Source: Lachnospiraceae bacterium | GTDB taxonomy: Bacteria > Bacillota > Clostridia > Lachnospirales > Lachnospiraceae | Assembly: GCA_024685315.1 (NCBI GenBank) | Contig: JAIKVW010000020.1 | Span: 7,385-71,384, forward strand | Direction of reading: 5' to 3' | DNA length: 64,000 nucleotides | In this document: positions 22,888 through 63,627 of the stretch, piece by piece | Position numbering within the stretch: the first letter of the stretch is position 1 | Layout of the letters: every line of letters begins with the position of its first letter | The notes under the pieces: model-generated | What the model was told of the DNA's origin: nothing | What the model saw: the letters and a program-made list of their open reading frames with translations, nothing else | Database searches by the model: none | Translations under genes and position numbers: made by a program

Positions 22888-22923
22888 ATGGCCGTATCAT
22901 CCTCCCGGCAGAACGTGGATCTC

Positions 22924-31007: not shown

Positions 31008-31022
31008 TTGTCTCCCTCCAAA

Positions 31023-31421: not shown

Positions 31422-31430
31422 AGAATCCTC

Positions 31431-32306: not shown

Positions 32307-32343
32307 ATCTGTTCCTCTGTCTGATAAATGACGTTTACGGATC

Positions 32344-32805
32344 TCAGCCCTGCTGCAGCGCGTCAAGCATCTCCTGGGGATTCTCCGCTGCCTTCACCTT
32401 GTCCATTGCCTTAATGATCACGCCCTCTTCGTCGATAAGGTAGGTGGTGCGGACGACGCCCATGGAGACCTTGCCGTAATTCTTCTTTTCCTTCCAGACG
32501 TCATATGCTTCCAGCACTTCATGCTCCGGGTCTGAAAGGATGGTGAAGGGAAGGCCGTACTTCTCCTCAAAGTTCTTGTGGGATTTCACGCTGTCCTTGC
32601 TCACGCCGAGCACCACAGCACCCTTCTCGGTGAACTGGGGATAGCGCTCCGCAAAGCCGCACGCCTGCTTCGTGCAGCCTGAAGTGTTGTCCTTGGGGTA
32701 GAAATAGAGAATGACTTTCTTCCCGCGGTAATCTTTGAGAGAATGTATTTCCCCGTTCTGATCCGGGAGGGTAAACTCCGGAGCCTTAATTCCTGTACTT
32801 AGCAT
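32344..32805 (-). CDS. bcp: Thiol peroxidase Bcp (peroxiredoxin)
   Basis: APEFTLPDQNG...VILYFYPKDNTSGCTKQAC active site. Start set at ATG 32803-32805 (MLSTG), 7 nt after AAGGAGG. The track start at 32823 lies inside that RBS. Confidence 0.9.
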   Translation of the reverse strand: MLSTGIKAPEFTLPDQNGEIHSLKDYRGKKVILYFYPKDNTSGCTKQACGFAERYPQFTEKGAVVLGVSKDSVKSHKNFEEKYGLPFTILSDPEHEVLEAYDVWKEKKNYGKVSMGVVRTTYLIDEEGVIIKAMDKVKAAENPQEMLDALQQG

Positions 32806-32952
32806 GATGCGGTCCTCCTTCATACGTAATTCTTTTTTCTGTCTCTATTATATCCCCGGGAAGGCCCAGAAATCAATTCGGGGATGCCGCATAAATACGG
32901 CATCCCCGAAGAGCTGCAGAGATTCGTTATATTGTGAAGGACATCTCCGCTG

Positions 32953-33627
32953 TTATTTCCTGTGCCTGCGCTTATAATCCTCCCTGATCTCCATGAGAGT
33001 TTCCTCGCTGTCAAGCGCTTCGGCCATCTCTTCCACGGAAGGGGCCTCCCTGACACAGCTGACAGTTTCCGACATGACCTTATAATTCAGCTCCACCCCA
33101 CGGCGGTCCTTTTCAAAATTCACAGCGTGTGTCGGCCTGATCCCTACCCTCTGCGCGGTGCTTATCGCGTCGATATCCGCTCCGAGGAACAGGAATTCCC
33201 ATCCGTACTTCTCCTGCATTTCCCTTACCATCCGGCGCACCCTGTCGTAACTGTAGTTCCTGCTGGCATTCTCCATCCCGTCCGTGGTGATGATGAATAG
33301 CGTCTTCTCCGGAACGTCCTCCTCCCTGGCGTACCTGCGTACATTGTAGATATGATGGATGGCCCCGCCTACAGCGTCCAGGAGCGCCGTGCAGCCTCTC
33401 ACATAGTACTGTCTGTCGGTCATGGGCTCTGCCTTCTGGATATCGGTCCTGTCGTAGAGGACTTCTGTACGGTCATCGAAAAGCACGACCGAAACATAGG
33501 CTTCCCCGTCCTCATTTTTCTGTTTTTCGAGAAGGGAATTGAACCCGCCGATAGTATCACCTTCCAGCCCTCTCATGGAACCGCTCCTGTCAAGAATAAA
33601 AACAAGCTCTGTTAAACCTTTCTTCAT
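32953..33627 (-). CDS. Cytoplasmic von Willebrand factor A (vWA) domain protein
   Basis: 224-aa ORF. MIDAS motif LVFILDRSGSM and a later IITTDGMEN block. No signal peptide or TM helix. Confidence 0.8.
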   Translation of the reverse strand: MKKGLTELVFILDRSGSMRGLEGDTIGGFNSLLEKQKNEDGEAYVSVVLFDDRTEVLYDRTDIQKAEPMTDRQYYVRGCTALLDAVGGAIHHIYNVRRYAREEDVPEKTLFIITTDGMENASRNYSYDRVRRMVREMQEKYGWEFLFLGADIDAISTAQRVGIRPTHAVNFEKDRRGVELNYKVMSETVSCVREAPSVEEMAEALDSEETLMEIREDYKRRHRK

Positions 33628-33708
33628 TTTCGTACCTCCTGCGCATTGCTCTTTGCCTCATCGGCCGTTTCTTTTTTCTTTCCGGGGACAGTATATCAGG
33701 AGGGAATT

Positions 33709-33741
33709 AAAAAACGGTCGCCGGTGAAGCGACCGTTTTTC
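33709..33741 (-). terminator. Rho-independent terminator closing the TIR/Macro operon
   Basis: ACGGTCGC (33714-33721) pairs with GCGACCGT (33729-33736). A/T runs flank both sides, and the minus strand reads stem-loop-stem-TTTTTT. It lies 26 nt downstream of the Macro-HTH stop. Confidence 0.65.
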
Positions 33742-33766
33742 ATGCAGGAACTTTCTCCGTTCCCCG

Positions 33767-35074
33767 TCATGTAATGATGCAGGGGATCCCGTGTTCCTCG
33801 AGCTGGATGTCAAGTTCGATCATGTCGTATATCTTGTTTTCTATGAAAAATGTGAAGATAATGTCCGTCTTGTCGCTGGGCGACAGGGCGTACCCTGCCC
33901 TCGCAAGCAGGTCCCTCGACTCATCCAGGTTCAGCTTCGCCCCAATGCACAGACACAGCGCGGTCAGCTTCTGAGGATGGTATTCCGGGTTGTTTTTTAT
34001 CTTGGAAAAGACCTTCTTGTCAATTATCGCCCGTTTGTAAACGTCTGCGTTTTCCATTCCCTTCCGCTCTATCAGGTAAAGCAGGTACTGCGAGAAGGTA
34101 TCGGCCCTGTGGGACATCCTCTCCCTCAGCTTCCGCTCCAGGGCTTCGTAATCGACTTCCGGCTCTTCGAAGGACTCGGAGGCACATTCAGCTTCTTCCT
34201 CATATAGATCGTCTTCAAACGATAACTCATCCTTTTTCGATACATCGAAGACCGGCCGGGGAGAGGAAGGACGCCGCCTCGCGTTATTAATAAAAATGCT
34301 GCTTCTGGGAGCCTTTTGTTTCTGTGCTTTTTCCTCAGGTGCCCGCGGATGGGTTCTGCTGCCGGAAGCAGGCATACTGGGCTTGCTTCCGCATAAGCCC
34401 GGCATATAGTCGTCCTTCCGCAGCTCTTCCTCTCTTCTCCGTAAAAACTCGGCCCTCCGCCTTTCCCGGAGCGCGATATCCTTTTCCGGATCGAAATCAT
34501 AAGAATGATACGCTCCGCCGTACTCCTCCCTGCGCTTCTCGTCAACATAATTCCTGCTGATATACTCCTCAAGCCCCGCGTAAAGGTTCCTCCCCATCGA
34601 AGTTGCCTTGTCATCGAATACTACAAGGTATATCTCCATATCAGAATGCAGGAGAAATGCGTGTATCTCGTCGACCGCGATCCTCATCCCTTCTTCCCTG
34701 GGATATCCGAATCCGCCGGTCGAGATCAGCGGGAAAGCAATCGACTGGATCCCGCGCTCCGCCGCGAGGTCAAGGCTCTTCCGGTAGCACGAACGCAGAA
34801 GCTCTTCCTCGCCGTGCTCACCGTCGATATAGAGCGGGCTCACCGCATGGATAATGTATTCTGCAGGAAGGTCAAAACCCGGGGTGATGAAGACTTCCCC
34901 TTCCGGGACCGCCCCGATATGCTCCTTGCGGTAATCAAGGAGCTTCTCATAGCCCGCGGCCTGATACACCGCATGGTCACAGCCCGTCCCCGCGACCGGT
35001 TCGGTATTCGCGGTGTTCACGATGGCCTGCGTTTCCATCCTGGTTATATCGTTCCTAACGATCTTAAATGACAT
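33767..35074 (-). CDS. Macro domain protein with charged low-complexity linker and C-terminal XRE-like HTH domain
   Basis: 435-aa ORF. N-terminal macrodomain blocks (AIVNTANTE, GTGCDHAVYQAAG, IIHAVSPLY, IAFPLISTGGFGYP). Arg/Glu/Pro-rich middle. C-terminus TFSQYLLYLIERKGMENADVYKRAIIDKKVFSKIKNN...LLARAGYALS looks like an HTH. GGGAGG RBS lies 9 nt before the ATG. The gene starts 35 nt after the TIR gene stop. Confidence 0.8.
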   Translation of the reverse strand: MSFKIVRNDITRMETQAIVNTANTEPVAGTGCDHAVYQAAGYEKLLDYRKEHIGAVPEGEVFITPGFDLPAEYIIHAVSPLYIDGEHGEEELLRSCYRKSLDLAAERGIQSIAFPLISTGGFGYPREEGMRIAVDEIHAFLLHSDMEIYLVVFDDKATSMGRNLYAGLEEYISRNYVDEKRREEYGGAYHSYDFDPEKDIALRERRRAEFLRRREEELRKDDYMPGLCGSKPSMPASGSRTHPRAPEEKAQKQKAPRSSIFINNARRRPSSPRPVFDVSKKDELSFEDDLYEEEAECASESFEEPEVDYEALERKLRERMSHRADTFSQYLLYLIERKGMENADVYKRAIIDKKVFSKIKNNPEYHPQKLTALCLCIGAKLNLDESRDLLARAGYALSPSDKTDIIFTFFIENKIYDMIELDIQLEEHGIPCIIT

Positions 35075-35109
35075 TTAAGAATTCCTCCCTTAAGTCAAAA
35101 CAATACTGT

Positions 35110-37662
35110 TCAGCTCTCCTCTTCCAGTTCCCTGAGGGCGTCTTCAGACCCGGATATGAAAGCCCTGTATGTACCGTCCCCTGTATTGTCGAGAAGTTCC
35201 CTGCTGAAGCCGATGGATCTATGCAGAAAGTCTCTCCGGACATCCAGAGGAAGCCCTTCCCTGCTTCCTGCCCTGTAAGCGTTGATCGCAAGCTTTTTCA
35301 TGACCTTGAGCTTCTGATCGCTCCAGCCCTCGCCGGTCTCTTTGAGCGCTTTTTCAAATTCATAGTAAGCATTCTTATAGTCTTTCGAAGCCCGGACAAG
35401 TTCATTCCTGCATTCATACGACACCGCGTTATCCATAAATGCGTCGCCGAAGAGGAACCGCGCATCTTTCTCACAGTTATTGTATTTGCAGGCTTTGTAC
35501 AGATTATCATAATCGGCTTCCATTTTTGCCCAGGCATCATCCGTCTCTGCCAGTCCCCATTGCCCTATACTAACCCTCAGCTGAGTATAACGGGCATCCT
35601 GCATGACCGGGCCGTCGCCGTTCATTTCTGCCAGTCTGAAGGTCAATTCCGCGAGATTGTGCAGCTTCTGAAAAGTATCGTCTTCCTTCACGTCCATGGC
35701 AATTGCCATATTTAAAGGAAGCGCTTTTTCAAAATTCTCCTGGGCGTTTTTATAGTCTTTCAGGCGCAGATATTCATACGCAAGATCTACATAGGCCCGA
35801 TAAAGCGCATGTTCATTTGATCTGCTGTTGTCCTCATCGTAAGCTTCCCGGTACAGGCCGCAGGCCGTTTTGTAAAGATCCCTTGCCTTTACATGGTCTT
35901 CCTGAAATTCCCGTACTTCTCCAAGGTCCCTGTATATCCTGGCTTTTTTATTTTTGCTGACCGCCGTATCGGGTCCTCCGGAGATCTTTTCGAATATGGA
36001 AAGAGACTGTCGGTAACAATCTGCCGCAAGGTCATAATTTCTCCTTGCCTTTTCAATATCCCCTTTCAGCGAATATGCACTCGACAGGTCTGAGTTGGAA
36101 GAAGCGTCATCCTTTTTCCTGACCTCGTCCTGCGCCATAGGAAGAAGCATATTTACATACTTTTCCGCAGCATCGATCTCTTCCCTTTTGATCAGGACTC
36201 CGCTGAGATATATATATAGGGCTATATGCATTTTCCCGGAGGCGGTCTTTGAGGCTTTTACGATCTTTACAGCCTCTTCCAGGAGTTTTACGGCTTCTCC
36301 GGTATCATCTTTTTCATTTTTGATCTTGGCAAGCTGGTAATAGCTCCATGCCAGCCGGACCTGTGCGGTATCGGACAGGTTCCATTTTGTCCTGGCACTG
36401 ATCTCGGAAAGCTCCCGGAGCACAGCTTCCGCCTCGTCCAGCTTGCTGATCTCAATAAGCTGCTTCCCCTGGGCCGTCAGGACCTCCATAAGCTCATTTC
36501 CGTTGTCCTCGCTCGGATTTCTCTCAAAGCGCTTCCTCAGGAGCTCCGCCTGCTTTGCCTTCCACCTGGCGCCCCATACGCGGACGCGCTCCACTCCTTT
36601 TCCGTTCTCAAACATCATTGAGAGCTGGCCCGCGGCTTCGGGAAGCCCTGCCTCGGCCGCTTCCTCCAGCAGTTTTTCAGCCCTCCAGGGATCTTTCTCA
36701 AGATCGATCCCGTCCAGATACGCAAGCGCTATCAGGTACTTGTGCTCTGGGGTATCGTCCGGCTGCGGGATGGCAAGCCTCTTGAGGAGCCCATCAAGGA
36801 TCTCCTGAAATCTTATTTCATCGTAAATATTTACGCATTCCGTCAGGCCGGAATATGAATCAAATAGAGCCCTGCGGTCCGTCTGTACCATTTCCACGGC
36901 AAATACCGGCTTGTTATCGGCCAGTGCCGCAGGATACTCAATGTCCCTGACATAATTGCTCTCATTCACCAGGTTAGGCGTCACCGTAAGCGCGAAGATG
37001 CTGCTCTTTTTGAGCATTTCACTGATGGAAAGATTGAAATCCTCTCCCGGGATCAGGAACTCGTCATACCAGATGGCTATGTCGCGGCAGGCAGGGTTCC
37101 GGTGTATCATCTCCATCAGCTTTTGCGCCGCGGCCCTGTCCTTCTTTCTGTAGCTGAGGAAAATGTAAGCGTCAAAAGCGTCCCGGACTTTTTCCGCAAG
37201 CTCATCGCTGATAATAACGCTGTGAATGTATTTGGACAGCACGTCATCAAAACTTAACTTGGTCGGGTCGTCAGCATTAGGGTCCAGATACTGAAGATTG
37301 CCGAAACGCTTTGAGTAGGCTGCATCAAGACCGGTCTCCATCATAAGCGGAAGCACAGGAATGTGGAGCTCAAATGCCAGCGGGATATCAAAGTACATTG
37401 CGCGGTTCGGCTTAGTAAGCAGATCCGCCGTGACCGGCACCACAAAGAGCTGCATCCGTGAAAGCTGCAGTTTCAGGTCATCTTCATCCCAGTCTTCTCC
37501 AAAAGAACTGTCGTACCATACAGCGCAGTCCTGGATCTTAAATAACTTCGCGGAATATTCTTCAAAATACTTCGCGAAATCATCAGGATAGCAGACGAAA
37601 TAGATCCTGGGTTTCCCTTTAGGATCAGCATTTCCTATAGTCTTGTATTCAAAATGCGGCAT
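35110..37662 (-). CDS. Tandem TIR-like domains fused to Sel1/TPR repeat array
   Basis: 850-aa ORF with GGAGG 7 nt before the ATG. Residues around 175-270 fit TIR_2 (YIFLSYRKKDRAAAQKL...IAIWYDEFLIPGEDF...SSIFALTVTPNLVNESNYVRDIEYPAA). Residues around 15-115 form a second TIR-like unit (RIYFVCYPDD...AVWYDSSFGEDWDE...LFVVPVTADLL). Next comes a Sel1-like repeat (LAYLDGIDLEKDPWRAEKLLEEAAEAGLPEAAGQLSMMFENGKGV), then about 480 aa of TPR-like helical repeats. Confidence 0.7.
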   Translation of the reverse strand: MPHFEYKTIGNADPKGKPRIYFVCYPDDFAKYFEEYSAKLFKIQDCAVWYDSSFGEDWDEDDLKLQLSRMQLFVVPVTADLLTKPNRAMYFDIPLAFELHIPVLPLMMETGLDAAYSKRFGNLQYLDPNADDPTKLSFDDVLSKYIHSVIISDELAEKVRDAFDAYIFLSYRKKDRAAAQKLMEMIHRNPACRDIAIWYDEFLIPGEDFNLSISEMLKKSSIFALTVTPNLVNESNYVRDIEYPAALADNKPVFAVEMVQTDRRALFDSYSGLTECVNIYDEIRFQEILDGLLKRLAIPQPDDTPEHKYLIALAYLDGIDLEKDPWRAEKLLEEAAEAGLPEAAGQLSMMFENGKGVERVRVWGARWKAKQAELLRKRFERNPSEDNGNELMEVLTAQGKQLIEISKLDEAEAVLRELSEISARTKWNLSDTAQVRLAWSYYQLAKIKNEKDDTGEAVKLLEEAVKIVKASKTASGKMHIALYIYLSGVLIKREEIDAAEKYVNMLLPMAQDEVRKKDDASSNSDLSSAYSLKGDIEKARRNYDLAADCYRQSLSIFEKISGGPDTAVSKNKKARIYRDLGEVREFQEDHVKARDLYKTACGLYREAYDEDNSRSNEHALYRAYVDLAYEYLRLKDYKNAQENFEKALPLNMAIAMDVKEDDTFQKLHNLAELTFRLAEMNGDGPVMQDARYTQLRVSIGQWGLAETDDAWAKMEADYDNLYKACKYNNCEKDARFLFGDAFMDNAVSYECRNELVRASKDYKNAYYEFEKALKETGEGWSDQKLKVMKKLAINAYRAGSREGLPLDVRRDFLHRSIGFSRELLDNTGDGTYRAFISGSEDALRELEEES

Positions 37663-37774
37663 AACGAGGCCTCCGTAGATTCGATACCAATATGATGTCC
37701 GGTACGCCTGTATTATACAAAAATACTACAGGAAAACAAACTGTCCTTTGACTGGCCCGCCTGTGATTTTTCTC

Positions 37775-39747: not shown

Positions 39748-40317
39748 TCAGGGCAGAGCGGAATAGCTGCGGTCAGTCAGGCTGACCGCGTATCCTCCTC
39801 CCGGAGCGGGCTGCCATTCATAGCGGTTTTTGTTTTCTTCCGGAAAAAGGCTCGCCATGATAAGCGCGATCACGCCGCCGTGGGCAACCAGAAGGGTGTC
39901 CCGTCCCGACGCGGTCAGTCGGTCAAGCCCTTCCATCACGCGGGACCGCATCATCTCTCCGCTCTCTCCGCCCGGGGCAATATTCGCTTCATTATCCCCG
40001 CTGATCCAGGCAATATAGTCCGGATCAGCTTTTAATTCTGCGTAAGAGCGCATTTCAAAGGCTCCGAAATCCATCTCCCGGAAATCCGGATCGGCCTCGT
40101 GCGGCACCTCGCCGAAAAGAAGCTCCAGCGTCTGCTCGCACCGCTTCATGCCGCTCGTCAGCACACTCATTTCTGAGGGATCGAAAAGACTCTTATCATA
40201 TTTAAGATTTTTCAGTTCATTCCTGCCGTTTTCGGAAAGCTCCAGGTCGGTCTTCCCGCAGTACAGATGGTTTTCGTTGGCTGCGGTCTTTCCATGGCGT
40301 ATCAGTACAAGCATCAT
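39748..40317 (-). CDS. cobC: Histidine phosphatase family protein, probable alpha-ribazole-5'-phosphate phosphatase
   Basis: LIRHGKT catalytic motif right after the proposed start (MMLVLIRHGKTAANE) and a later VAHGG. Last gene of the cob cluster. Its ATG overlaps the upstream stop (ATGA). Confidence 0.7.
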   Translation of the reverse strand: MMLVLIRHGKTAANENHLYCGKTDLELSENGRNELKNLKYDKSLFDPSEMSVLTSGMKRCEQTLELLFGEVPHEADPDFREMDFGAFEMRSYAELKADPDYIAWISGDNEANIAPGGESGEMMRSRVMEGLDRLTASGRDTLLVAHGGVIALIMASLFPEENKNRYEWQPAPGGGYAVSLTDRSYSALP

Positions 40318-40691
40318 TTCAGTTTTTGCTCCAGTCCGCAGAAAATGCGCGTCACGCTTTCGGCTTCGCCTGAGAGATACGCGCATAGCCTGCCTGTCAT
40401 CTCACGCCAATCCCGCATATCTTTGCCAAGCGGCACCACTCCGCAGAAAATGTCCTCGCATATCAGGACGCTGTCCTTCCAATCATCCCTATGCGCCTTA
40501 AATATTTCCAATGCATCTATGCCGTTTTTCACGCAATACAGCGTGTATTCCTGTATATTGTATACGCACTGCCGGGCGAATTCTATGCCTTTATCTTCCG
40601 TGCAGACAAATATCTCTTCATCACTTAATGAACACCTGCTCTTCGCGTATTCAAGCTTCCCCTGGTACGCGCCGCCGATTATCAGATCCAT
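40314..40691 (-). CDS. CobU-like protein with degenerate P-loop
   Basis: The C-terminus (ICEDIFCGVVPLGKDMRDWREMTGRLCAYLSGEAESVTRIFCGL) resembles the CobU C-terminal region. The N-terminus reads GGAYQGKL where CobU has a GxxxxGKS Walker A. Start set at ATG 40689-40691, 6 nt after GGAGG. Confidence 0.5.
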   Translation of the reverse strand: MDLIIGGAYQGKLEYAKSRCSLSDEEIFVCTEDKGIEFARQCVYNIQEYTLYCVKNGIDALEIFKAHRDDWKDSVLICEDIFCGVVPLGKDMRDWREMTGRLCAYLSGEAESVTRIFCGLEQKLK

Positions 40692-40701
40692 CCAAATCCT
40701 C

Positions 40702-41451
40702 CTATACCAAAGCAAATACCGCTATCCCGCAGAGTTCCCCGATCGTCAGCGCGTATCCGGAAATGTCTCCGGACATGCCGTCAAGCGAGCAGAAACCCCG
40801 CCGCAGGAATATAAGATACCCCGCAATGACTGCCAGGGACGCAAAGCCGTATCGGCCAAGCAGAATAAATCCCAAAATAACAGACACTGCAAGTATCGCC
40901 AGCAGGATCATGGCATGCTCCTTTTTTACGCCCTTTCTGTAGGCGCCGGAGTATTCGCTCGCCGATATCGGGCGCAGTATCGTTACGCCGAGCGCCGCGA
41001 CCGTCCTTGAAACAACGGGAATGAAGATAAGGGTAAATATATCCGAGGTATCTTTTGCCGAGGCAAAAAGCGCGACCTCCGCAATTATCAGCAGGCACGC
41101 GGCAATCACCGCGAATGAGCCGACGTGCGGGTCCTTCAGTATCCTTCTGCGCTCTTCCGGGCTCCGCCAGGACTTCACCGCGTCAACGGTATCCATGAAG
41201 CCGTCCATGTGTATTCCTCCGGTCAGGACTATCGGGAACGCGCAGAGAATGATCCCGTCGACCAGCGAAGGGAACTGGATCAGCCGCAGGATCCATGCGG
41301 CCAGAGCCCACAATGCTCCGATCACCGCGCCGACCAGCGGCAGGAAAAGCGTCATCAGCGGACGCGCGTCCTCGTCCCATTCGCCAAACGGACAGGGCAA
41401 TGCGGTGAACATCGAAAGGCTCATCATAAATGCCCGGAAGTATTTATTCAT
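40702..41451 (-). CDS. cobS: Adenosylcobinamide-GDP ribazoletransferase (cobalamin synthase)
   Basis: 249-aa polytopic membrane ORF. MSLSMFTALP near the N-terminus and GGIHMDGFMDTVD block. Confidence 0.85.
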   Translation of the reverse strand: MNKYFRAFMMSLSMFTALPCPFGEWDEDARPLMTLFLPLVGAVIGALWALAAWILRLIQFPSLVDGIILCAFPIVLTGGIHMDGFMDTVDAVKSWRSPEERRRILKDPHVGSFAVIAACLLIIAEVALFASAKDTSDIFTLIFIPVVSRTVAALGVTILRPISASEYSGAYRKGVKKEHAMILLAILAVSVILGFILLGRYGFASLAVIAGYLIFLRRGFCSLDGMSGDISGYALTIGELCGIAVFALV

Positions 41452-41987
41452 ACTTTAGGCCCTCCTTTGTGGAATATCAGGTTCCCCGCGCAGAGCTCCA
41501 GCACTGCGTCACATTCTTTCGCAAGGAAACGGTCGATCGCGGCCAGGGACGCGCGGTATTTTTCGGTAATGTCATCATAACGGAAAGCGTCGGAATATAT
41601 GTAATCGCTGACAAAAACCGCGTTTTCGGCCTTTTCAATGATCGCGCCGAGGTCCCGGATGCAGCGGCTTTCCGCTTCCGGATCGGCCTCTCCGCCTGCA
41701 GAAAACATTTCGTTCTGCAGCAGCGCTGTTATGCTGTCGACCAGGAATGTTCCGTTCCCGCCCACTTTTTCAAGGCAGGAACCGATGTCCCTTGGAATCT
41801 CGACCGTCTCGAAGCCCAGACCTGCGCGGTCAGCGATGTGCCGCGCTATCCTTTCGCGGTCTTCATCGTCATAAGGGACCATCGTCGCCACGTAATAGCG
41901 CTTTCCGCCCGCGGCCAGCTTTACCGCAAGCTCCTGGGCGAATCCGGATTTTCCGTTCTTGCAGCCGCCCGAGATCAAAACATTCAT
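41448..41987 (-). CDS. cobU: Adenosylcobinamide kinase / adenosylcobinamide-phosphate guanylyltransferase
   Basis: 179-aa ORF. P-loop ISGGCKNGKSGFAQ and YVATM..YDDE..ERI.RH block. Confidence 0.85.
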   Translation of the reverse strand: MNVLISGGCKNGKSGFAQELAVKLAAGGKRYYVATMVPYDDEDRERIARHIADRAGLGFETVEIPRDIGSCLEKVGGNGTFLVDSITALLQNEMFSAGGEADPEAESRCIRDLGAIIEKAENAVFVSDYIYSDAFRYDDITEKYRASLAAIDRFLAKECDAVLELCAGNLIFHKGGPKV

Positions 41988-41988
41988 T

Positions 41989-43098
41989 TCACTGTCCCTT
42001 CACCGAAAAAGAATCGGTCTTCCTGATTTCATCAAGGTAACTGTCGTCGATATCTGCCTCTTCAAAGGTCGCCATATCGTTCATCACGGCGCAGGCGGCG
42101 TCCAGCATCATCATGGCTATCGGGCACCCGCTGCCTTCGCCGAGCTTCATGCCGAGATCGAAAAGCGGTCTCAGCCCGAGCTCCTCCGCGGCAATATCGC
42201 TGCCTCTCTCAAATGACCTGTGCGAGGGGATCATGTACCCGCGCGCGTCAGGGCAAAGCCGGCAGGCGCAGAGCGCGGCGACATCTGAAATGAAACCGTC
42301 GATCACCACGGGAACGCGGCTGTATGCGGCGCCGATGAACGCCCCGGCCATCGCGGCAATGTCAAGCCCGCCGACCTTCGATATTACACCGACCACGTCG
42401 TTTTTGTCGGGGGCGTTAAGGGCTATCGCCTTTTTGATAACCGCTATCTTGTTTTTATATGCAGACTCGGTTATGCCGGCGCCGCGGCCGGTGACTTCCT
42501 CCGCGTCATGCCCTGTGAGCACGGCCAGAACGGCGGACGAAGTAGTGGTGTTCCCAATGCCCATCTCGCCGACGCCCAGCACCTTCACGCCTTCTTCCGC
42601 GGCCCCGCATGCGGTCTCTATCCCGCACAGAACAGCGCGCAGCGCCTGTTCGCGGCTCATTGCCGGCTGTTTTGCGATGTTCTGCGTACCTAAGGCGATC
42701 TTTCTGTCAAACACTGCAGGATCGCTTACTTCCGCGTTCACCCCGACGTCTATAACACGCATCTCGCAGCCAAAGCGCTTCGCCAGGACCGCTGCGCCGG
42801 TCTTTCCGCGCGCCATATTTACAGCCTGGGCCCGCGTGACGGACTGCGGGGCGCTCGCAACGCCCTCCTCGGTCACCCCGTTATCCGCGCAGAAAACAAG
42901 GATGCATTTTTTATCAAGTTCATTATGAATCTTCCCGGTAATGCCCGCGAGCTGCGCCGAAAGCTCTTCCAGCCTCCCAAGGCTCCCCGGAGGCTTCGCA
43001 AGCCTGGCCTGGCGCTCTTCCGCCTCTGCTGCGGCAGCACTGTCCGCCGGCCCGACCGCATTTATTATATTGTTTAGTCTTATTTCAAGCTCATCCAT
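41989..43098 (-). CDS. cobT: Nicotinate-nucleotide--dimethylbenzimidazole phosphoribosyltransferase
   Basis: LAKPPGSLGRLEELSAQLAGITG, CADNGV and GEMGIGNTT blocks. Start set at ATG 43096-43098 (MDELEIRL). The track start at 43263 overlaps cobQ and looks like an extension. Confidence 0.85.
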   Translation of the reverse strand: MDELEIRLNNIINAVGPADSAAAAEAEERQARLAKPPGSLGRLEELSAQLAGITGKIHNELDKKCILVFCADNGVTEEGVASAPQSVTRAQAVNMARGKTGAAVLAKRFGCEMRVIDVGVNAEVSDPAVFDRKIALGTQNIAKQPAMSREQALRAVLCGIETACGAAEEGVKVLGVGEMGIGNTTTSSAVLAVLTGHDAEEVTGRGAGITESAYKNKIAVIKKAIALNAPDKNDVVGVISKVGGLDIAAMAGAFIGAAYSRVPVVIDGFISDVAALCACRLCPDARGYMIPSHRSFERGSDIAAEELGLRPLFDLGMKLGEGSGCPIAMMMLDAACAVMNDMATFEEADIDDSYLDEIRKTDSFSVKGQ

Positions 43099-46492: not shown

Positions 46493-48118
46493 TTATGAAG
46501 CTTTCAGTTCCGTCAGGAACTTGCCTGTCCGGCCTCCCTGAATCTTGAAATGAAGCTTGTTGATGTTGTAGGCAATGGCAAGCAGAACGCTCTGGGCCAG
46601 TACGTTTTCCTTTCCCCGGTAAAGATATCGGCGGAAATTCATGTCCTCTTTTATAACGGCAAAGCTGCCTTCGGCCTGAATGCTTCTGTTCATCCTGAGC
46701 TGTGTCCCGTACTCCGTTGTGATCCGTTCAAGAGTTTCCTGCCTCTTCTGTTTCATCACTTTAGAGACGTTCAGCCGTTTATTGCGTTCCTCCAGCGGTG
46801 TCTTGCAGTTGTTGCCGTGAATACATTTGTCTTTATAAGGGCATCCCTGACAGCTTTCACATTCGTAGACAGTCACTGTACTTACGTAGCCATTCCGGTT
46901 TTTGCTGCGACGGTCATATAACGGCCTGAGCTTCTTTCCTTTTGAGCAGATATATTCATCCGTCTCAGGATCATATTCCATGTTCTCTCTCCGGCTGATA
47001 TCCTGGCGATATTTCCGGGTCTTCGATATTTAGTAATTCTGTGGCTTCAGATACGATTCCTGTCCATTCTGCTCCAGAAATACATAAGCTTCCTCGCTTT
47101 CATATCCGGCGTCCGCAACGATCTCTTTGTACTTAAACGACAGATGCTCCTCCATGTCTTTTAAAAATGGGACAAGCGTCAGGACATCCGTTGGATGACT
47201 GCTCAGATCGAGCCATGTGATGTATTGCGCGTCAACTCCATGCTGAAGATTATAGGCGGGTTTCAGCTTCCCATTCAGCATCGCGTCTTCCTTCAGCCTC
47301 ATGAATGTCGCATCCGGATCCGTTTTAGAATAACTGTTCCGCTCTCCGCAGATATGAAGATGTTTTGTGTATTCTTTCAGCTTGCTGATATATTCCTCCA
47401 GCGTTTCAATGGACTTCTGCAACTGGCTTTTCCGGTGGCCGGCACCATAGACGAAAGGGATCTGTTCATCTTCCTTGATCTGATAGAGTTTTTTGCGCAG
47501 CCGCTTCATGGTATGCAGCGTCGCTTTTCCGTTATAAACCACCTTGATTCCGTACAGCGCCTCGCATTCTTCAATGAAAGAAACGATCTTCTCAAACAGA
47601 TGGGCCTGGCGCTTTGTGACAGACTTTTTCCAGACAAAAGTGTACTTATTCGCGCAGGATTCTATCTTTGTCCCATCAATAAATATCGTCTTGCCGGAGA
47701 TCTCCCCCAGTTCATAGAGCACAGAGGAAACATTGGCCAGGATCGTTTTGGAACAGGCGGAAAGGTGGAGTGAAAGAAACCGTGCAATCGTGGCATGATC
47801 CGGAGCCGGCATCCCTTCAAGGAGGAACATGAAGTTAATGTCTCTTTTGCAGACTGTCTCGATGTCACGGCTGGAAAACAGACGGTTCATGGAAGCGTAG
47901 ATCATGATCTTAAGCATCTGACGCGGTGACGCCTGATTTTTCCGGACCCTGTCGTAGGTAGCATAGAGTTCCGAAAGGTCCATTCCCTCCACAAATGCGC
48001 TCAGAAGGCGGACTGGGTCATCAGCCGGGATCATGGTTTCCATTTCGAGTGGAAGTTTGAATTGATAATAGCCTTGATATGCTGTATAATTTGGCTGTAA
48101 ATGTAATGGTTTTCGCAT
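46493..48118 (-). mobile_element. IS1182-family insertion sequence: transposase gene interrupted by a single in-frame TAA (element ends not defined)
   Basis: ORFs 47030..48118 (MRKPLHLQPNYTAYQGYYQFKLPLE...DDPVRLLSAFVEGMDL, IS1182/IS5-type N-terminus) and 46493..46981 (DDE C-terminal part ...QAEGSFAVIKEDMNFRRYLYRGKENV) are in the same frame. They are separated only by TAA (47030-47032) plus 16 sense codons (ISKTRKYRQDISRREN). Confidence 0.8.
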
Positions 48119-48217
48119 GCTATTATTTTACAACAAAGCCCGGACTTTTCGAAGCCCGGGTCTTTGTTTTTAAGAGAAATTCAGCCAGCCGGCCTAATTT
48201 CCATCCTATGTAAAAGA

Positions 48218-59370: not shown

Positions 59371-59820
59371 TCAGCAAATAATTTGTTCCAGCATCTTTAC
59401 CAGCTCCTCCAGCCCCTGCCGGTCCTCCTCACTGAAACGCTCTCTCACCGGGCTGTCGATGTCAAAGACCCCCCAGACCTTTCCGCCGCGGTGCACCGGG
59501 ATCACGATCTCCGACTCCGAGGCGCTGTCGCAGGCAATATGCCCGGCAAATTCATGAACGTTCGCGACCACAAGAGTCCTGTCCTGTTCCGCGGCGGTCC
59601 CGCAGACGCCCTTCCCCATCGGGATCGCCACGCACGCAGGCCTTCCCTGGAAGGGCCCCAGGACCAGCTTGTCCTCTTCCATAATGTAGAAGCCCGCCCA
59701 GTTAACTTCATCGAGCGATTCGTAAATAAGCGCGGAAATATTAGCGAGATTCGCGGTCAGGTACGGCACGCCCTCGGTCAACGCCTCCGCCTGTTTTATT
59801 AATAATGAATAATCAGTCAA
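59371..59820 (-). CDS. GAF-domain protein, free methionine-(R)-sulfoxide reductase-like
   Basis: 149-aa ORF (TTG start overlapping the upstream stop). [45 protein letters not shown] blocks. Confidence 0.8.
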
Positions 59821-60497
59821 CTCCTGTCCTCCGTTCTGTTCAAAGCCTCCTCGTAGGCCGCGTAGGTCCTGCTGTCAAAAAGCACCCACTCCACGAGATC
59901 AAGCTCTCCCGGATGTTCATCGATAAAGCGGCTGACCTCGCTGAGTGCGGTCCCGGCCGCCTTGTCAAGGGGATATCCGAAGACTCCGGTAGCGATCGAG
60001 GGAAAAGCTACCCTGCGCAGGCCCTTGTCCACGGCGAGCTGCAGAGAATTCCTGTAGCATGAGGCAAGGAGCTCTTCCTCGCCTGCGCTTCCCCCGCGCC
60101 AGATCGGTCCGACCGTGTGGATCACATATCTGCAGGGAAGCTCGTATGCCCCTGTGATCCTGGCCTCCCCGGTCGGGCAGCCGTGCAGTTTCCTGCATTC
60201 CTCGAGGAGCTTCGGCCCCGCGGCGCGGTGGATCACTCCGTCTACTCCGCCCCCGCCGAGCAGGCTCTCATTCGCGGCATTTACGATCGCGTCAACGTCA
60301 GATATTTTTGTGATATCGCCCTGGACCAGGCGCATTTCCGCCCGCGGCGCGGCCTGCTTTGAAAACTCGGAGCGAAGTTCCATGAGGGCCAGTCCAAGCA
60401 GCCCCTGTCCCGGCCATTTGGTCACGGGAGTTGTCTCCGCGCTCTCAGCGTCCAGGCCGATCCCCCAGATCTTGTTTTTTGGGGCTCGCCTCCGCAA
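59817..60497 (-). CDS. C-terminal part of a frameshifted ARH-NADAR-Macro gene: end of the NADAR domain plus a complete MacroD/YmdB-type macrodomain
   Basis: The ORF begins (TTG) inside the NADAR motif: [11 protein letters not shown]...[15 protein letters not shown]. The macrodomain follows: [35 protein letters not shown]...VIHTVGP...[14 protein letters not shown]. Confidence 0.8.
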
Positions 60498-62016
60498 GGA
60501 TCGCGGTGCCGGTATAAAGGAGCTTTTTCATCAGATCCGGATTCTGCTCGAATTTCGCGCGGTTTCCTTCCTTTACAATGTCGTACCTTGCCGCAGCCCA
60601 GGTATCCTCGTCAAAATTCGCGACTTTCTTCCCGAGCTCCTTGCACTCCCAGGGCTCTTCCGCCTTCAGTATCGCGGTATAGATCGCGGGATCATGGAAA
60701 AGCCTTGCCTTCTGCGCCATCATATACTGCTCAACATGCAGGTACTCAAAATCATCTATCGTAAATTTGCGCCTGAACCAGTTGGAGAAGCAGCCGTTCT
60801 CTTCACTCTCTTTCCAGAAGAACACGAAGGGGCTCTGCTTCACCGGCCGGTGCATGTACATATACTTTATCTCCCAGTCCGGGTCATAATACGAACTGCG
60901 CGCACTCATCCGGCAGCCCATGCAGAGGTCGTCCGCGATCTCAAGGATCACCTCGGATATCTCCAGGTCTTTCTTCCATTTATCCTCTATCGCCTCGTAT
61001 CCAAGCAGCGCGCCGAGGATATTTCCTGTCACCGCGCCGGTGGAATCGCTGTCGCCGCGGTGGTTTACAGCCGCACGTAAACCTTCTGAAAAGTCATCCT
61101 GGTGCCGGAGCGCGCAGTAGATCGCGATCCCGAGAGTCTCCTCCGCTACCCAGCCCTGTCCGAGCTTATGAATATTATCAAGATCATCCTCCGAACCGTT
61201 CTCCGAGAGATCCACCGCGAGATCAATGATCCCGACAAGCTCCGGAAGGTTCGGGTCCCCCGCAAATATTTTCGCAGCGGTATCCCTCGCCTCAAGCACG
61301 ATCTCTTTAAGCGGCAGCCGCTCTCCTTCCGGGAAAACAATACGGTTTATGATATGCACCAGCACTGCTGCCGGCATGTAGCCCAGGGAATGTCCGTGGG
61401 TGACCGCCGCGAGCTCGGCGCCCTCCATGTCGAGCATCTCAATATCCGGTATCTCCCGGCCGGGCTTATAATCAACCGCGATCGGCGCGACGCGCATGAT
61501 CCCGCCGCAGCCCTTGCTGCTATTGCGCTTTGCCTCCACATAATCATCAAATGTCTCCCCGCTATTCTCCTTCATGAGCGCGGACAGGCAGGTGGTCCCG
61601 GGAGCCCTGCGTGAAAAAAGCTCCGGAACGTCGAGGAGCCATGAGTAACCTCCCTCTTCAGAAAACCTTTCATGGCGGTTTACCTCTTCAAATGAAAGCT
61701 CCTGGGTCTTCAGCCAGTCAAGATAAGCCATGGCAACGTAGGCCCTCGGATTCCCCATTACCCCCCGCATCTTCCTGCGGGTATCACCGACCAGAAGCCC
61801 GTTCGCAGTGAAAAGGCTCATCTGCGTGTCGTCCGAGATATGCGCCTTCCCGGATGCCGGATCAAGCTCGTAGCGCGAGATCCCCTCCGGGCCGTATAGA
61901 TTAAAGATCTCTTCCTCTCCGAAAAATTCCACGGGGTATCCGAGCGCGTCGCCAGCCGCTCCGCCGAAAATGCATCCCCTTATGGCGTCAAGATAATCTT
62001 CTCTCTTCATGATCAT
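60445..62016 (-). CDS. N-terminal part of the same frameshifted gene: ADP-ribosylglycohydrolase domain plus most of a NADAR (YbiA/DUF1768) domain
   Basis: ARH blocks [45 protein letters not shown] blocks FSNWF...[14 protein letters not shown]...[27 protein letters not shown], after which the frame is lost. Likely start is ATG 62016 (ATGA overlap with the ybaK stop) or ATG 62010 (6 nt after GAGGAA). Confidence 0.8.
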
Positions 62017-62498
62017 TTCCTCGTAATGTCCGCCCACTCGCCCTGGCTCGCGGCCTTAAGGTCTTCCGGCTTCAGGTTTATCTGACACCCGATCCGCCCC
62101 GCGCTGACGTAGATATCATCAAGTCCCTGCGCTTCACCGGCGATCCTCACCGGGTACTGCTTCTTCATGCCGATGGCGGTGCAGCCCCCGCGGACATAGC
62201 CGGTAACGTTCTTGATGTCCTTCACATGTATCATTTCCACGCTCTTCTCGCCGACGCTCCTCGCGGCCTTTTTGAGGTCGAGCTCCTCGTCGATCGGGAT
62301 CACGAATACGAAATATCCCTTGCCGGCGCCCTGGCATACGAGAGTCTTGTAAACCTTCTCGTGCGGGAGTCCGAGCGCGTCCGCGGTCTTGCCGCCGTCC
62401 TCAAACTCTCCGCATTCATACGACTGCGCTGTATAATTGATCCCAAGCCCGTCGAGTATCCTCATGGCGTTGGTCCTTACTTCCTTCTGTTTTGACAT
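62013..62498 (-). CDS. ybaK: Cys-tRNA(Pro)/Cys-tRNA(Cys) deacylase YbaK
   Basis: 161-aa ORF. TNAMRILD start, KTLVCQG and GYVRGGCTAIGMKK blocks. Confidence 0.85.
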   Translation of the reverse strand: MSKQKEVRTNAMRILDGLGINYTAQSYECGEFEDGGKTADALGLPHEKVYKTLVCQGAGKGYFVFVIPIDEELDLKKAARSVGEKSVEMIHVKDIKNVTGYVRGGCTAIGMKKQYPVRIAGEAQGLDDIYVSAGRIGCQINLKPEDLKAASQGEWADITRK

Positions 62499-63031
62499 TA
62501 TTTCTCTCCTGATGCAAGGTATTCGGCGGCCATATCGTGCCAGACCCCGCCGCCCCAGACCGATCTGGATATGCCGAGGTCCTTAAAGCCCATTTTCCGG
62601 TACATCTCTATCTTCTCTTCGTGGCAGGTCAGTATCGCCTTCCCGGAAGCCGCCCTCCGCTTGTACTCCCTCTCCAGGAAAATGCGCACCAGCGCTTTCG
62701 CGAGCCCCCGACCGCGGTATTCCGGAAGGACGTCCAGCCCGAGCAGCATCACGTTCTTCCCCGCGGGGTCGTAAAGCTCCGCGTCGGTAAAGAATTCGTC
62801 GCGGAAGACTTCTTCATCCGTAGATAATCCGTTAAGAAATCCCGCGAGACGGCCGGCCGCCTTATCCTCCGCCACCAGGAACAGCTCCGGAGCTTTGCGG
62901 ACCCGGGCCGCCATATGCTCCGGGGAGCAGGCCTCATTCGGCGGAAAGCATATTTTCTCTATCTCGATCGCCTGGTCCTCCTCCTCCGGGCGTATGTCCC
63001 GGAACTCAAAAAGATCCTGTATATTATTCAT
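62498..63031 (-). CDS. GNAT N-acetyltransferase
   Basis: 177-aa ORF. LDVLPEYRGRGLAKALV acetyl-CoA binding loop. Confidence 0.75.
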   Translation of the reverse strand: MNNIQDLFEFRDIRPEEEDQAIEIEKICFPPNEACSPEHMAARVRKAPELFLVAEDKAAGRLAGFLNGLSTDEEVFRDEFFTDAELYDPAGKNVMLLGLDVLPEYRGRGLAKALVRIFLEREYKRRAASGKAILTCHEEKIEMYRKMGFKDLGISRSVWGGGVWHDMAAEYLASGEK

Positions 63032-63069
63032 TAATGTTTTCCCTCTTTTTATATGCAGAAAACGCAGTC

Positions 63070-63627
63070 TCAGTCCTTCAGAAATTCGACCTTCCCGGTC
63101 TCAATATCGTACATGGCCCCTACGACTGAAAGCCCTTTCGCCTCGTCCTTTCTGATCGAAACGCTGCTCTCGATGAGCGCTATGCTGCGCTTCACGTTAA
63201 GGCACCCGGCCTTATAGGGGTCGCGCTCCGCACCGATAGCGGCCTGGATCTCGTCCGTAATGAACTTGATATATCCTTCCGGGTCATGATTTATCGCAGC
63301 GTCCACCGCGCCGCAGCAGGTATGTCCCAGCACGACGACCAGGTTCGTCCCGAGATGGTCCGCGGCATATTCAATGCTTCCGAGCTGGTGATTGTCGATC
63401 ACGTTCCCTGCGACCCTGATCACGAAAAGGTCACCGATCCCGCAGTTAAATATTGCCTCGGGGATCACCCTCGAATCGGAGCAGGTGATGATTACCGCGA
63501 AGGGGGTCTGCCCGCACCGCGCGGTCTTCAGGCGGACCGCCGGGGAGATATCCCCGATCGCACTGCGTGATCCCTGATATTCTTCATTTCCTCTTATGAG
63601 CCTAAGCATGGCTTCGTCTTTATCCAT
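63070..63627 (-). CDS. Beta-class carbonic anhydrase
   Basis: 185-aa ORF. Zinc ligands in ITCSDSRV and LGHTCCGAV. Confidence 0.85.
   Translation of the reverse strand: MDKDEAMLRLIRGNEEYQGSRSAIGDISPAVRLKTARCGQTPFAVIITCSDSRVIPEAIFNCGIGDLFVIRVAGNVIDNHQLGSIEYAADHLGTNLVVVLGHTCCGAVDAAINHDPEGYIKFITDEIQAAIGAERDPYKAGCLNVKRSIALIESSVSIRKDEAKGLSVVGAMYDIETGKVEFLKD

What the first reader, a model, noticed from the sequence alone, without database searches (positions are those of the whole stretch)
59817..62016. ARH-NADAR-Macro triple fusion (three different ADP-ribose-removing domains) broken by a +1 frameshift in an A6 run
Seen in sequence:
- ORF 60445..62037 ends ...[25 protein letters not shown].
- The overlapping ORF 59817..60497 continues in another frame with ...[13 protein letters not shown]...[15 protein letters not shown], which is the missing end of the NADAR domain. 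A full macrodomain follows.
- The switch point is the run CCCC-AAAAAA (plus strand T6 at 60475-60480, G4 at 60481-60484).
- Removing one A restores a single ORF of about 740 aa reading [12 protein letters not shown].

Established knowledge:
- ARH (DraG-like) enzymes remove Arg/Ser-linked ADP-ribose.
- Macrodomains remove acidic-residue, O-acetyl or thymidine-linked ADP-ribose.
- As I recall, NADAR domains reverse guanine ADP-ribosylation.

Inference:
- The intact gene would encode a broad-spectrum eraser of ADP-ribosylation, possibly a counter-measure to ADP-ribosylating toxins.
- The frameshift may be a sequencing error at a homopolymer, a recent inactivation, or a slippage-based phase switch.
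- This is the second macrodomain gene in the same window as the TIR locus.
Basis: partly seen in the sequence, partly recalled or inferred. Interest (0 to 1): 0.65.

Follow-up and report, generated by a model that had tools for sequence, protein, structure and literature searches.

The report
Frameshifted three-domain ADP-ribose hydrolase gene
A gene that fuses three different enzymes for removing ADP-ribose tags is really there and is really broken by one extra base, but it is a trimmed, probably recently inactivated copy of a gene family common in gut and rumen Clostridia, not a new mechanism.

Summary
On the minus strand, ORF 60445..62037 carries ARH plus NADAR profile positions 1-125. ORF 59817..60497 carries NADAR positions 123-162 plus a MacroD-type macrodomain. 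They meet at CCCCAAAAAAC. Removing one base gives a 732-aa protein that aligns end to end with 75 single-ORF homologues.

- The closest relatives (60-72% identity; Lachnospiraceae, Blautia, rumen MAGs) are about 1050 aa and carry a fourth eraser, a bacterial PARG domain, at the N-terminus. The window copy is a secondarily reduced form.
- The extra base could lie in the C4 or the A6 run. No single-base repair restores the Asp that is invariant in all 75 homologues, so the lineage also carries Asp-to-Asn.
- No relative shares the shift, but four other lineages are broken elsewhere in the gene.

The downstream frame shows no decay, and 50 other ORFs scanned in the window show no frameshift. I read this as a non-programmed, very recent inactivating indel (about 55%) or a consensus error (about 30%). 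Reads are needed to decide.

A phase switch, programmed frameshifting and a link to the TIR locus 22 kb away are not supported. No paper describing the fusion was found.

The parts
59817..62016 (-). Whole interrupted gene (ARH-NADAR-MacroD). It would encode 732 aa if one base were removed at 60475-60484.
62013..62016 (-). ATGA overlap between the stop of the upstream YbaK-like (tRNA_edit) gene and the ATG start of the hydrolase gene. A second ATG lies at 62010 and a GAGGAA Shine-Dalgarno-like motif just upstream.
60982..61977 (-). ARH (ADP_ribosyl_GH, PF03747) domain. The SDDT and GDSDST acidic motifs are conserved.
60478..60822 (-). NADAR domain, N-terminal three quarters (profile 1-125 of 163). 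It holds E429, K436 and E509, the equivalents of P. nicotianae NADAR E43, K50 and E125.
60475..60484 (-). Indel site CCCC-AAAAAA (plus strand T6 then G4). One surplus base sits in the codon of the conserved NADAR Asp, the D130 equivalent.
60445..60447 (-). Premature TGA that ends ORF1 eleven codons after the shift.
60363..60485 (-). NADAR C-terminal quarter (profile 123-162 of 163), now in the +1 frame. It includes the W517 equivalent of W133 and the last helix.
59949..60284 (-). MacroD-type macrodomain with NAAN and GGGGVDG motifs intact, in the +1 frame.
60333..60425 (-). Candidate restart codons in the downstream frame: GTG 60425 with GGAG 9 nt upstream, ATG 60383, and ATG 60335 ([10 protein letters not shown]...). 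This is inference only.
59817..59820 (-). TTGA overlap between the hydrolase stop and the TTG start of the downstream GAF-domain gene.

Best explanation
This is a chromosomal gene of the Clostridia multi-hydrolase family, whose full form is bacterial-type PARG, then ARH, then YbiA-type NADAR, then MacroD. The copy here has secondarily lost the PARG domain. It sits in a tightly packed same-strand run of ordinary genes: beta-carbonic anhydrase, GNAT, YbaK-like, the hydrolase, GAF.

The intact 732-aa protein would be a cytoplasmic enzyme with three chemically different active sites that cut ADP-ribose off different linkages (inferred):
- ARH: N- or O-glycosidic protein linkages; its own substrate is unknown.
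- NADAR: N2-guanine on DNA and RNA.
- MacroD: ester and phosphate linkages and O-acetyl-ADP-ribose.
Its most plausible role is clean-up or non-cognate protection against ADP-ribosylating toxins.

In this sequence the gene is interrupted by one surplus base in the C4A6 tract, at the codon of a conserved NADAR Asp. The break is not programmed. It is most likely a genuine, very recent loss-of-function mutation. The main product would be ARH plus a NADAR that lacks its last ~40 residues. The macrodomain would go untranslated unless ribosomes restart downstream.
For: Shown:
- Domain content and the split of one NADAR profile across two frames.
- Colinear 60-72% identity to 75 single-ORF homologues.
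- The window copy nests inside a 36-member clade that is almost entirely four-domain, so PARG loss is secondary.
- Catalytic residues of all three domains are present.
- No relative has a shift or an A/C run here. They read CCN AAR GAY AAG, i.e. P-K-D-K.
- No RNA structure stands out at the site (z = -0.95).

Favouring a real mutation over an error:
- 50 other ORFs in the window give essentially full-length Pfam matches and no other frameshift, although 31 homopolymers of 6 nt or more lie inside ORFs.
- The site differs from relatives by a substitution as well as an indel.
- The window holds another true pseudogene, an IS transposase with an in-frame TAA.
- Family members are demonstrably disrupted in nature. 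A Blautia lineage has an out-of-frame macrodomain deletion seen in five independent assemblies. L057 has a frameshift, a stop and changed invariant residues in Macro. L022 has a frameshift in ARH.

Context for function:
- Gene neighbourhoods vary. They include a KptA/Tpt1 ART-superfamily gene (L015, L004) and a toxin/immunity/AbiE island (L021).
- All NADAR subfamilies tested hydrolyse ADPr-guanine.
- Bacterial PARG protects against an RNA-targeting ART toxin.
Against: - No reads and no same-species sequence exist in any collection searched, so a consensus error at a homopolymer cannot be excluded.
- The downstream frame shows no decay. All 175 invariant columns are kept, and the window copy has only 3 singleton deviations, against at most 7 in the other sequences. 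This fits an artefact as well as a very recent mutation.
- The proposed physiological role is inferred from domain biochemistry. No neighbour is conserved across loci, no ART gene lies nearby in the window, and no enzyme of this family has been assayed.
Confidence: 0.55

Rival explanations
1. Sequencing or assembly artefact. The real genome has one base fewer in the C4A6 tract, and the organism makes an intact 732-aa ARH-NADAR-MacroD protein.
For: - The break lies in adjacent homopolymers, the classic site of consensus indels.
- The downstream 226 codons are open and keep every invariant residue of the family, so there is no decay at all.
- There is only one observation of this sequence anywhere.
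Against: - None of the 50 other ORFs scanned in the window shows a frameshift, despite 31 intragenic homopolymers of 6 nt or more. The assembly is therefore not generally error-prone at homopolymers.
- A pure length miscount does not explain the Asp-to-Asn difference at the same codon.
Confidence: 0.3
2. Functional gene fission. The strain makes two useful polypeptides: ARH (with a dead NADAR stump) from ORF1, and a stand-alone MacroD made by re-initiation at GTG 60425 or ATG 60335.
For: - In-frame restart codons lie 20-110 nt after the ORF1 stop. One has a GGAG 9 nt upstream, and ATG 60335 gives [10 protein letters not shown], at the beginning of the macrodomain homology region (residue ~560).
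- The family is modular. ARH-NADAR, ARH-Macro and PARG-ARH-NADAR forms exist, as does a locus with a separate NADAR gene.
Against: - The break is inside the NADAR domain, not at a domain boundary. It separates the catalytic Glu from the Trp and helix that follow.
- No relative is split here.
- The restart signals are weak and unverified.
Confidence: 0.08
3. A programmed +1 ribosomal frameshift, transcriptional slippage, or a slipped-strand phase-variation switch at the A6/C4 tract controls whether full-length protein is made.
For: - A +1 slip of tRNA-Lys on AAA-AAA-C would give exactly the homologous ...PKNKIWGIG... sequence.
- Homopolymers are the substrate of slippage.
Against: - The site is not conserved. 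Every relative encodes the region in one frame without a run.
- No slow codon or stop follows the slip codon, and the local RNA fold is unremarkable (z = -0.95).
- By general knowledge, runs of 6 are too short for efficient transcriptional slippage or high-frequency phase variation, which usually need about 8-9 nt or more.
Confidence: 0.04

Closest known systems
Uncharacterised PARG(PF10021/TIGR02452)-ARH-NADAR-MacroD proteins of Lachnospiraceae, Blautia and rumen Clostridia (e.g. P0001, 1053 aa)
   Same: Colinear 60-72% identity over ARH, NADAR and Macro, with the same linkers and the same invariant residues. The window copy nests inside this clade.
   Different: The window copy lacks the ~310-aa N-terminal PARG domain with its GGG-X6-8-QEE signature. 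It starts exactly at the PARG/ARH linker, directly after the ybaK stop. It is also frameshifted and has Asn at the conserved NADAR Asp.
YbiA-subfamily NADAR (E. coli YbiA, PDB 2b3w; P. nicotianae NADAR, PDB 8bau)
   Same: The repaired protein passes TIGR02464 (146 vs 73.7 bits) and hits PDB 8bau and 2b3w. It has the Glu that defines the YbiA subfamily (E509 = E125) plus the E43 and K50 equivalents.
   Different: It is embedded between two other hydrolase domains, whereas most NADARs are described as free-standing. The D130 equivalent is Asn, and the domain is split between two frames.
MacroD-type macrodomains (human MacroD1/2, E. coli YmdB, D. radiodurans DR_2288, O. iheyensis MacroD)
   Same: E-values of 1e-47 to 1e-51 to these PDB chains. 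NF001664 'O-acetyl-ADP-ribose deacetylase' scores above its cutoff (217 vs 200). The NAAN and GGGGVDG motifs are present.
   Different: It is C-terminally fused rather than stand-alone, and here it lies out of frame with its start codon.
ARH/DraG-like hydrolases (DraG, ARH1, ARH3, Tri1; closest solved structure M. jannaschii MJ1187, PDB 1t5j)
   Same: Full-length PF03747 match. The two conserved acidic motifs are present and align with MJ1187.
   Different: It is only distantly related to any characterised ARH. The profile E-value is 1.7e-23 to the uncharacterised MJ1187 and about 1e-16 to 1e-14 to DraG and ARH3. It scores far below the equivalog cutoffs for DraG and Tri1. Substrate is unknown, and no cognate toxin gene lies beside it as with Tre1/Tri1.
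DarTG1 (DarT1-NADAR) and YarT-YbiA toxin-antitoxin pairs
   Same: They use a NADAR hydrolase to undo ADP-ribosylation of guanine.
   Different: No ART toxin gene is adjacent in the window. The neighbours are YbaK-like, GNAT, carbonic anhydrase, GAF and CitMHS genes. The NADAR is Glu-type, not the Asp-type that is linked to DarT1.
[quoted passage not shown] 2022, PMC9503650)
   Same: NADAR and Macro in one polypeptide, interpreted as two specificities for different ADPr linkages.
   Different: Those are viral and lack ARH and PARG. No phage or plasmid record holds 80% or more of the window protein.

Membership tests
ARH / ADP-ribosylglycohydrolase (PF03747) | Full-length match to the family profile above the curated cutoff | tested here: met
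   207.9 bits against a cutoff of 26.2, profile positions 1-286 of 287.
ARH / ADP-ribosylglycohydrolase (PF03747) | Two acidic motifs that bind the di-metal centre | tested here: met
   S61-D62-D63-T64 and G321-D322-S323-D324-S325-T326 are invariant in the family alignments. The second motif aligns with GGDTDS of MJ1187. Assigning them to specific metal ligands of ARH3 and DraG rests on my memory.
ARH / ADP-ribosylglycohydrolase (PF03747) | Hydrolysis of an ADP-ribosyl linkage; substrate identity | not testable with these tools
   Needs enzyme assays. The protein scores below the equivalog cutoffs for DraG and Tri1.
NADAR, YbiA subfamily | Profile match above the curated cutoff | tested here: met
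   The N-part scores 119.9 bits against 35.1. The repaired protein scores 146 against 73.7 for TIGR02464.
NADAR, YbiA subfamily | Catalytic Glu in the last strand, plus the E43 and K50 equivalents | tested here: met
   E509, E429 and K436 are invariant and have the same spacing as E125, E43 and K50 in PMC11543638.
NADAR, YbiA subfamily | Conserved Asp (D130 equivalent) three residues before the conserved Trp | tested here: not met
   Asp in 75 of 75 homologues. The window gives Asn (or Lys) under every single-base repair.
NADAR, YbiA subfamily | Whole domain encoded in one reading frame | tested here: not met
   Profile positions 1-125 are in ORF1 and 123-162 in ORF2.
MacroD-type macrodomain | Equivalog-level profile match and the NAAN / GGGGVDG motifs | tested here: met
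   NF001664 scores 217 against 200. Motifs are seen. The best PDB hits are MacroD-type chains.
MacroD-type macrodomain | Actually translated in this organism | not testable with these tools
   The domain lies downstream of the frameshift. Restart codons exist but are unverified.
Four-domain PARG-ARH-NADAR-MacroD family | Colinear homology over ARH, NADAR and Macro | tested here: met
   60-72% identity over 98-99% of the query.
Four-domain PARG-ARH-NADAR-MacroD family | N-terminal bacterial PARG domain (PF10021) | tested here: not met
   The gene starts at the PARG/ARH linker. The YbaK-like gene ends at 62013, leaving no room for remnants.
ART toxin / hydrolase antitoxin pair (DarTG, Tre1/Tri1, YarT/YbiA) | Adjacent ADP-ribosyltransferase gene | tested here: not met
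   The flanking genes encode tRNA_edit, GNAT, Pro_CA, GAF, CitMHS and AtuA domains.
Programmed frameshift / transcriptional slippage site | Shift site and two-frame arrangement conserved in orthologues | tested here: not met
   All relatives are in one frame and read CCN AAR GAY AAG.
Programmed frameshift / transcriptional slippage site | Stimulatory element (structure, slow codon or stop in the A site) | tested here: not met
   Fold z = -0.95. The next codon is CAA.
Phase-variable contingency locus | Tract-length heterogeneity within or between strains | not testable with these tools
   No reads and no same-species sequences are available. The tract is only 6 nt (A) or 4 nt (C).

The most novel reading that the evidence does not exclude
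The family to which this gene belongs may be a single-polypeptide, pan-linkage ADP-ribose eraser. It would combine PARG, ARH, NADAR and MacroD active sites to give gut and rumen Clostridia generic, non-cognate protection against ADP-ribosylating toxins of competitors or phages acting on protein, DNA and RNA. Its recurrent domain losses and frameshifts, including the one in this window, would then record a changing toxin landscape. No experiment on any member was found.
Probability: 0.3. Interest if true: 0.6.

Novelty: new member of a known kind. Interest (0 to 1): 0.28.

Why it matters
The frameshift itself matters little. It is an ordinary disrupted accessory gene or a consensus error.

The family behind it is worth a note. 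Proteins that join up to four mechanistically unrelated ADP-ribose hydrolases in one chain are abundant in gut and rumen Clostridia. In the literature I could search they are neither described nor assayed. If they act as broad 'universal antidotes' to ADP-ribosylating toxins, they would extend the idea of enzymatic, non-cognate immunity (Tri1, bacterial PARG against RhsP2, NADAR against DarT1) to a multi-specificity enzyme. They would also supply natural domain-loss variants for dissecting substrate range.

For annotation, the window gene should be flagged as a frameshifted pseudogene candidate, not as two genes.

Tried and rejected
- Same-species sequence to judge tract length. The genome-contig scan found at best 74% aa identity. 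An exact-pattern metagenome scan allowing A5-A7 gave 0 hits. The protein-based metagenome scan reached at most 70%. The truncated product is not on record elsewhere. Nothing usable came of this.
- Conserved gene neighbourhood. All-against-all clustering of ORFs from 57 sources (56 loci plus the window segment 52001-64000) found no neighbour shared beyond same-species groups. The only hints were a KptA homologue in two lineages and a beta-carbonic anhydrase in L009/L042 and the window.
- AlphaFold2 of the repaired protein with a 20-sequence alignment gave mean pLDDT 61 and pTM 0.47. It was too poor to use and no fold search was run.
- Rfam over the whole window gave 0 hits. The promoter/terminator scan found nothing inside the gene string on the coding strand.
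- Phage and plasmid tblastn found only single-domain matches. No record covers 80% or more of the protein.
- PADLOC gave only a domain-level hit of NADAR to the candidate model PDC-M42C.
- Literature. Five searches and the papers read found no description of an ARH-NADAR-Macro or PARG-ARH-NADAR-Macro fusion. de Souza & Aravind 2012, which defined NADAR and may list such architectures, is not held.
- Relaxed selection before the frameshift. Rejected, because the window protein has only 3 singleton deviations at otherwise invariant columns, within the range of intact homologues.
Full report
**1. The observation**

- ORF 60445..62037 is 530 aa and ends ...[19 protein letters not shown].
- ORF 59817..60497 is 226 aa and contains ...[13 protein letters not shown]...[15 protein letters not shown].

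The junction on the coding strand is GAGGCGAGC-CCCC-AAAAAA-CAAGATCTGGGGG. On the plus strand the T6 run is 60475-60480 and the G4 run is 60481-60484.

Pfam places these domains:
- ORF1: ADP_ribosyl_GH at residues 21-352 (3e-61), and NADAR profile positions 1-125 of 163 (1.7e-34).
- ORF2: NADAR positions 123-162 of 163 (9.5e-7), and Macro (1.5e-47).

One domain profile therefore runs on across the frame change. Removing one base gives one ORF of 739 aa from GTG 62037, or 732 aa from ATG 62016.

**2. What the gene is**

These carry a fourth, N-terminal domain, PF10021, the microbial-type PARG. In the alignment that domain shows the PARG signature GGG-X6-8-QEE (NPGGGVRRGAKAQEE; signature as given in PMC8120803).

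Genomic relatives come from Lachnospiraceae, Blautia and rumen or gut Clostridia MAGs.

The family is modular. The following forms all occur:
- PARG-ARH-NADAR-Macro, PARG-ARH-NADAR, PARG-ARH-Macro, ARH-NADAR-Macro, ARH-NADAR and ARH-Macro.
- ARH-Macro followed by a separate or fused NADAR (L009, L041, L042).

A search of 1.84 billion cluster representatives suggests, from hit lengths and matched ranges, that ~690-aa PARG-ARH proteins are the broad core. The NADAR- and Macro-bearing forms make up a few clusters at 50% identity.

In a neighbour-joining tree of 76 three-domain regions, the window protein nests inside a 36-member clade that is almost entirely four-domain. Its lack of PARG is therefore a secondary loss. 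The gene begins exactly at the PARG/ARH linker, and its ATG overlaps the stop of the upstream YbaK-like gene (ATGA at 62013-62016).

GC content is 57%, the same as its immediate neighbours.

**3. The domains**

*ARH.* It gives a full-length profile match, and the SDDT and GDSDST acidic motifs are invariant. It is only remotely related to any characterised member. The best solved relative is the uncharacterised MJ1187, followed by DraG, ARH3 and ARH1. Its substrate is open.

*NADAR.* It belongs to the YbiA subfamily: TIGR02464 scores 146 bits against a cutoff of 73.7. E429, K436, E509, position 514 and W517 have the same spacing as E43, K50, E125, D130 and W133 of the P. nicotianae enzyme. E125 is the Glu that defines the YbiA subfamily. 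All NADAR subfamilies tested hydrolyse ADPr-guanine in vitro (PMC11543638, PMC11125620).

*Macro.* It is MacroD/YmdB-type. NF001664 scores above its cutoff. The best PDB hits are DR_2288, MacroD1/2, OiMacroD and YmdB.

**4. The break**

Relatives read CCN-AAR-GAY-AAG-ATC-TGG (P-K-D-K-I-W). The window reads CCC-AAA-AAAC-AAG-ATC-TGG.
- The surplus base may be a C (C3 to C4) or an A (A5 to A6). Both repairs give ...SPKNKIW...
- Deleting the C that follows the A run gives ...PKKKIW...
- No single-base repair recovers the Asp that is present in all 75 homologues.

The lineage therefore carries an Asp-to-Asn change, at the D130 equivalent that makes a water-mediated pyrophosphate contact, as well as the indel.

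Restoring the frame needs a +1 shift. A -1 shift runs into a stop.

ORF1 as written keeps the catalytic Glu but loses the Trp and the last ~40 residues of NADAR. The macrodomain is uncoupled from its start codon.

**5. Programmed or accidental?**

- The shift is not conserved in any relative.
- The local RNA fold is unremarkable (z = -0.95).
- The codon after the run is an ordinary CAA.
- By general knowledge, a 6-nt run is short for efficient transcriptional slippage or phase variation.

I therefore reject recoding and phase switching as likely (about 4%).

The break also lies inside a domain, not between domains. That argues against a clean gene fission. Restart codons do exist downstream: GTG 60425 with GGAG 9 nt upstream, and ATG 60335 giving [10 protein letters not shown].

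**6. Real mutation or assembly error?**

This cannot be settled without reads. No same-species sequence exists in any collection I could search.

For an error:
- The site is a homopolymer.
- The downstream frame shows no decay. All 175 invariant columns are kept, and the window copy has 3 singleton deviations, against at most 7 in the other sequences.

For a real and very recent mutation:
- 50 other ORFs in the window give essentially full-length domain matches and no other frameshift, although 31 homopolymers of 6 nt or more lie within ORFs.
- The codon also differs by a substitution.
- The window has another true pseudogene, an IS transposase with an in-frame TAA.
- Disruption is recurrent in this family. 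A Blautia lineage carries an out-of-frame deletion of the N-terminal half of Macro, reproduced in five independent assemblies (L003, L026-L029). L057 has a frameshift, a stop and changed invariant residues in Macro. L022 has a 1-nt deletion in ARH.

L057 shows what an old break looks like. The window break looks fresh. My split is about 55% genuine recent inactivation, 30% artefact, 8% tolerated fission with re-initiation and 4% programmed or phase-variable.

**7. Function and context**

In the window the gene sits in a tightly packed same-strand string: beta-carbonic anhydrase, GNAT, YbaK-like, the hydrolase, then GAF, followed by CitMHS and AtuA genes. No promoter or terminator was predicted inside it.

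Relatives sit in unrelated places:
- beside ribosomal and housekeeping genes (L020);
- in a toxin/immunity/AbiE island (L021);
- near NERD/UvrD and MZB-domain genes (L022);
- next to a KptA/Tpt1 gene and an integrase (L015; a KptA homologue also in L004).

No neighbour is conserved across loci. The fusion is absent from the annotated phage and plasmid collections. PADLOC recognises only the NADAR domain, through a candidate model.

The best-supported mechanism is inferred from the biochemistry of the domain families, not shown. It is a cytoplasmic enzyme whose separate active sites remove ADP-ribose from different linkages, serving as clean-up or non-cognate protection against ADP-ribosyltransferase toxins. 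Precedents are Tri1, bacterial PARG against RhsP2 and NADAR against DarT1 and YarT.

The TIR-TPR gene (35110..37725) and its neighbouring 435-aa macrodomain gene (33767..35074) lie about 22 kb away, behind many unrelated genes. No functional link is supported.

**8. Novelty**

All domain families are known, and multi-domain members are plentiful in sequence databases. I found no paper describing or testing the ARH-NADAR-Macro or four-domain fusion. Schuller et al. state that most NADARs are free-standing. Tandem NADAR-Macro has been noted in viruses. The 2012 paper that defined NADAR could not be read.

The window gene is a new, reduced and broken member of a known but uncharacterised kind. 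Interest is low to moderate, and it attaches to the family rather than to the frameshift.

Noticed in passing
window 46493-48127 (-): An IS1182/IS5-like transposase is interrupted by an in-frame TAA (…KPQNY*ISKTRK…). DUF772 and DDE_Tnp_1 lie before the stop and DDE_Tnp_1_6 after it. It looks like a nonsense pseudogene of an IS element.
   Followed up: partly
window 30516-37725 (-): A TIR-TPR/Sel1 protein (871 aa, 35110-37725) sits directly upstream of a 435-aa protein with an N-terminal macrodomain (33767-35074) and a VWA protein (32953-33657). A 2H/LigT phosphoesterase lies at 30516-31022. PADLOC gives only weak TIR hits (ThsB 1.7e-5) and nothing for the partners. This may be an uncatalogued TIR-Macro defence pair.
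   Followed up: partly
window 40177-42928 (+), 21754-23560 (+), 13587-15179 (+): Runs of consecutive ORFs have no Pfam match at E <= 0.001: four ORFs at 40177-42928, two at 21754-23560 and two at 13587-15179.
   Followed up: no
L003:7600-7970 and L026-L029 (Blautia lineage): The homologous gene has lost the N-terminal ~60-70 residues of its macrodomain through an out-of-frame deletion (…LMELK|ADWCI*). The remaining half-domain is still recognisable in another frame. The lesion is identical in one isolate genome and four metagenome contigs, so it is real.
   Followed up: yes
L057:6640-7083: A 70%-identical relative has a decaying macrodomain. It shows a frameshift after …GVDGAIHRA, an in-frame stop, and changes at invariant residues (GGGG to GGDG, HTVGP to HIVGH). 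About 1.6 kb after the truncated PARG-ARH-NADAR gene has no called gene.
   Followed up: yes
L022:4585-6893: Another family member is split into 138-aa and 630-aa ORFs by a 1-nt deletion inside the ARH domain, and not at a long homopolymer. It is a single metagenome contig, so real or error is unknown.
   Followed up: partly
L015:4715-5269; L004: A KptA/Tpt1 RNA 2'-phosphotransferase gene (PF01885, ART superfamily) lies two genes upstream of the four-domain hydrolase gene in L015. A homologue is present in the L004 locus. It could be a functional partner in some lineages.
   Followed up: partly
L009:2215-4832, L041, L042: A different domain order occurs in a Lachnospiraceae lineage. ARH is fused directly to Macro, and NADAR follows as a separate ORF or a C-terminal fusion. 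A beta-carbonic anhydrase gene is nearby, as in the window.
   Followed up: partly
window 59371-63627 (-): Five to six genes are packed with overlapping stop and start codons (ATGA at 62013-62016, TTGA at 59817-59820), which suggests translational coupling. A premature stop in the hydrolase could therefore affect expression of the downstream GAF-domain gene.
   Followed up: no
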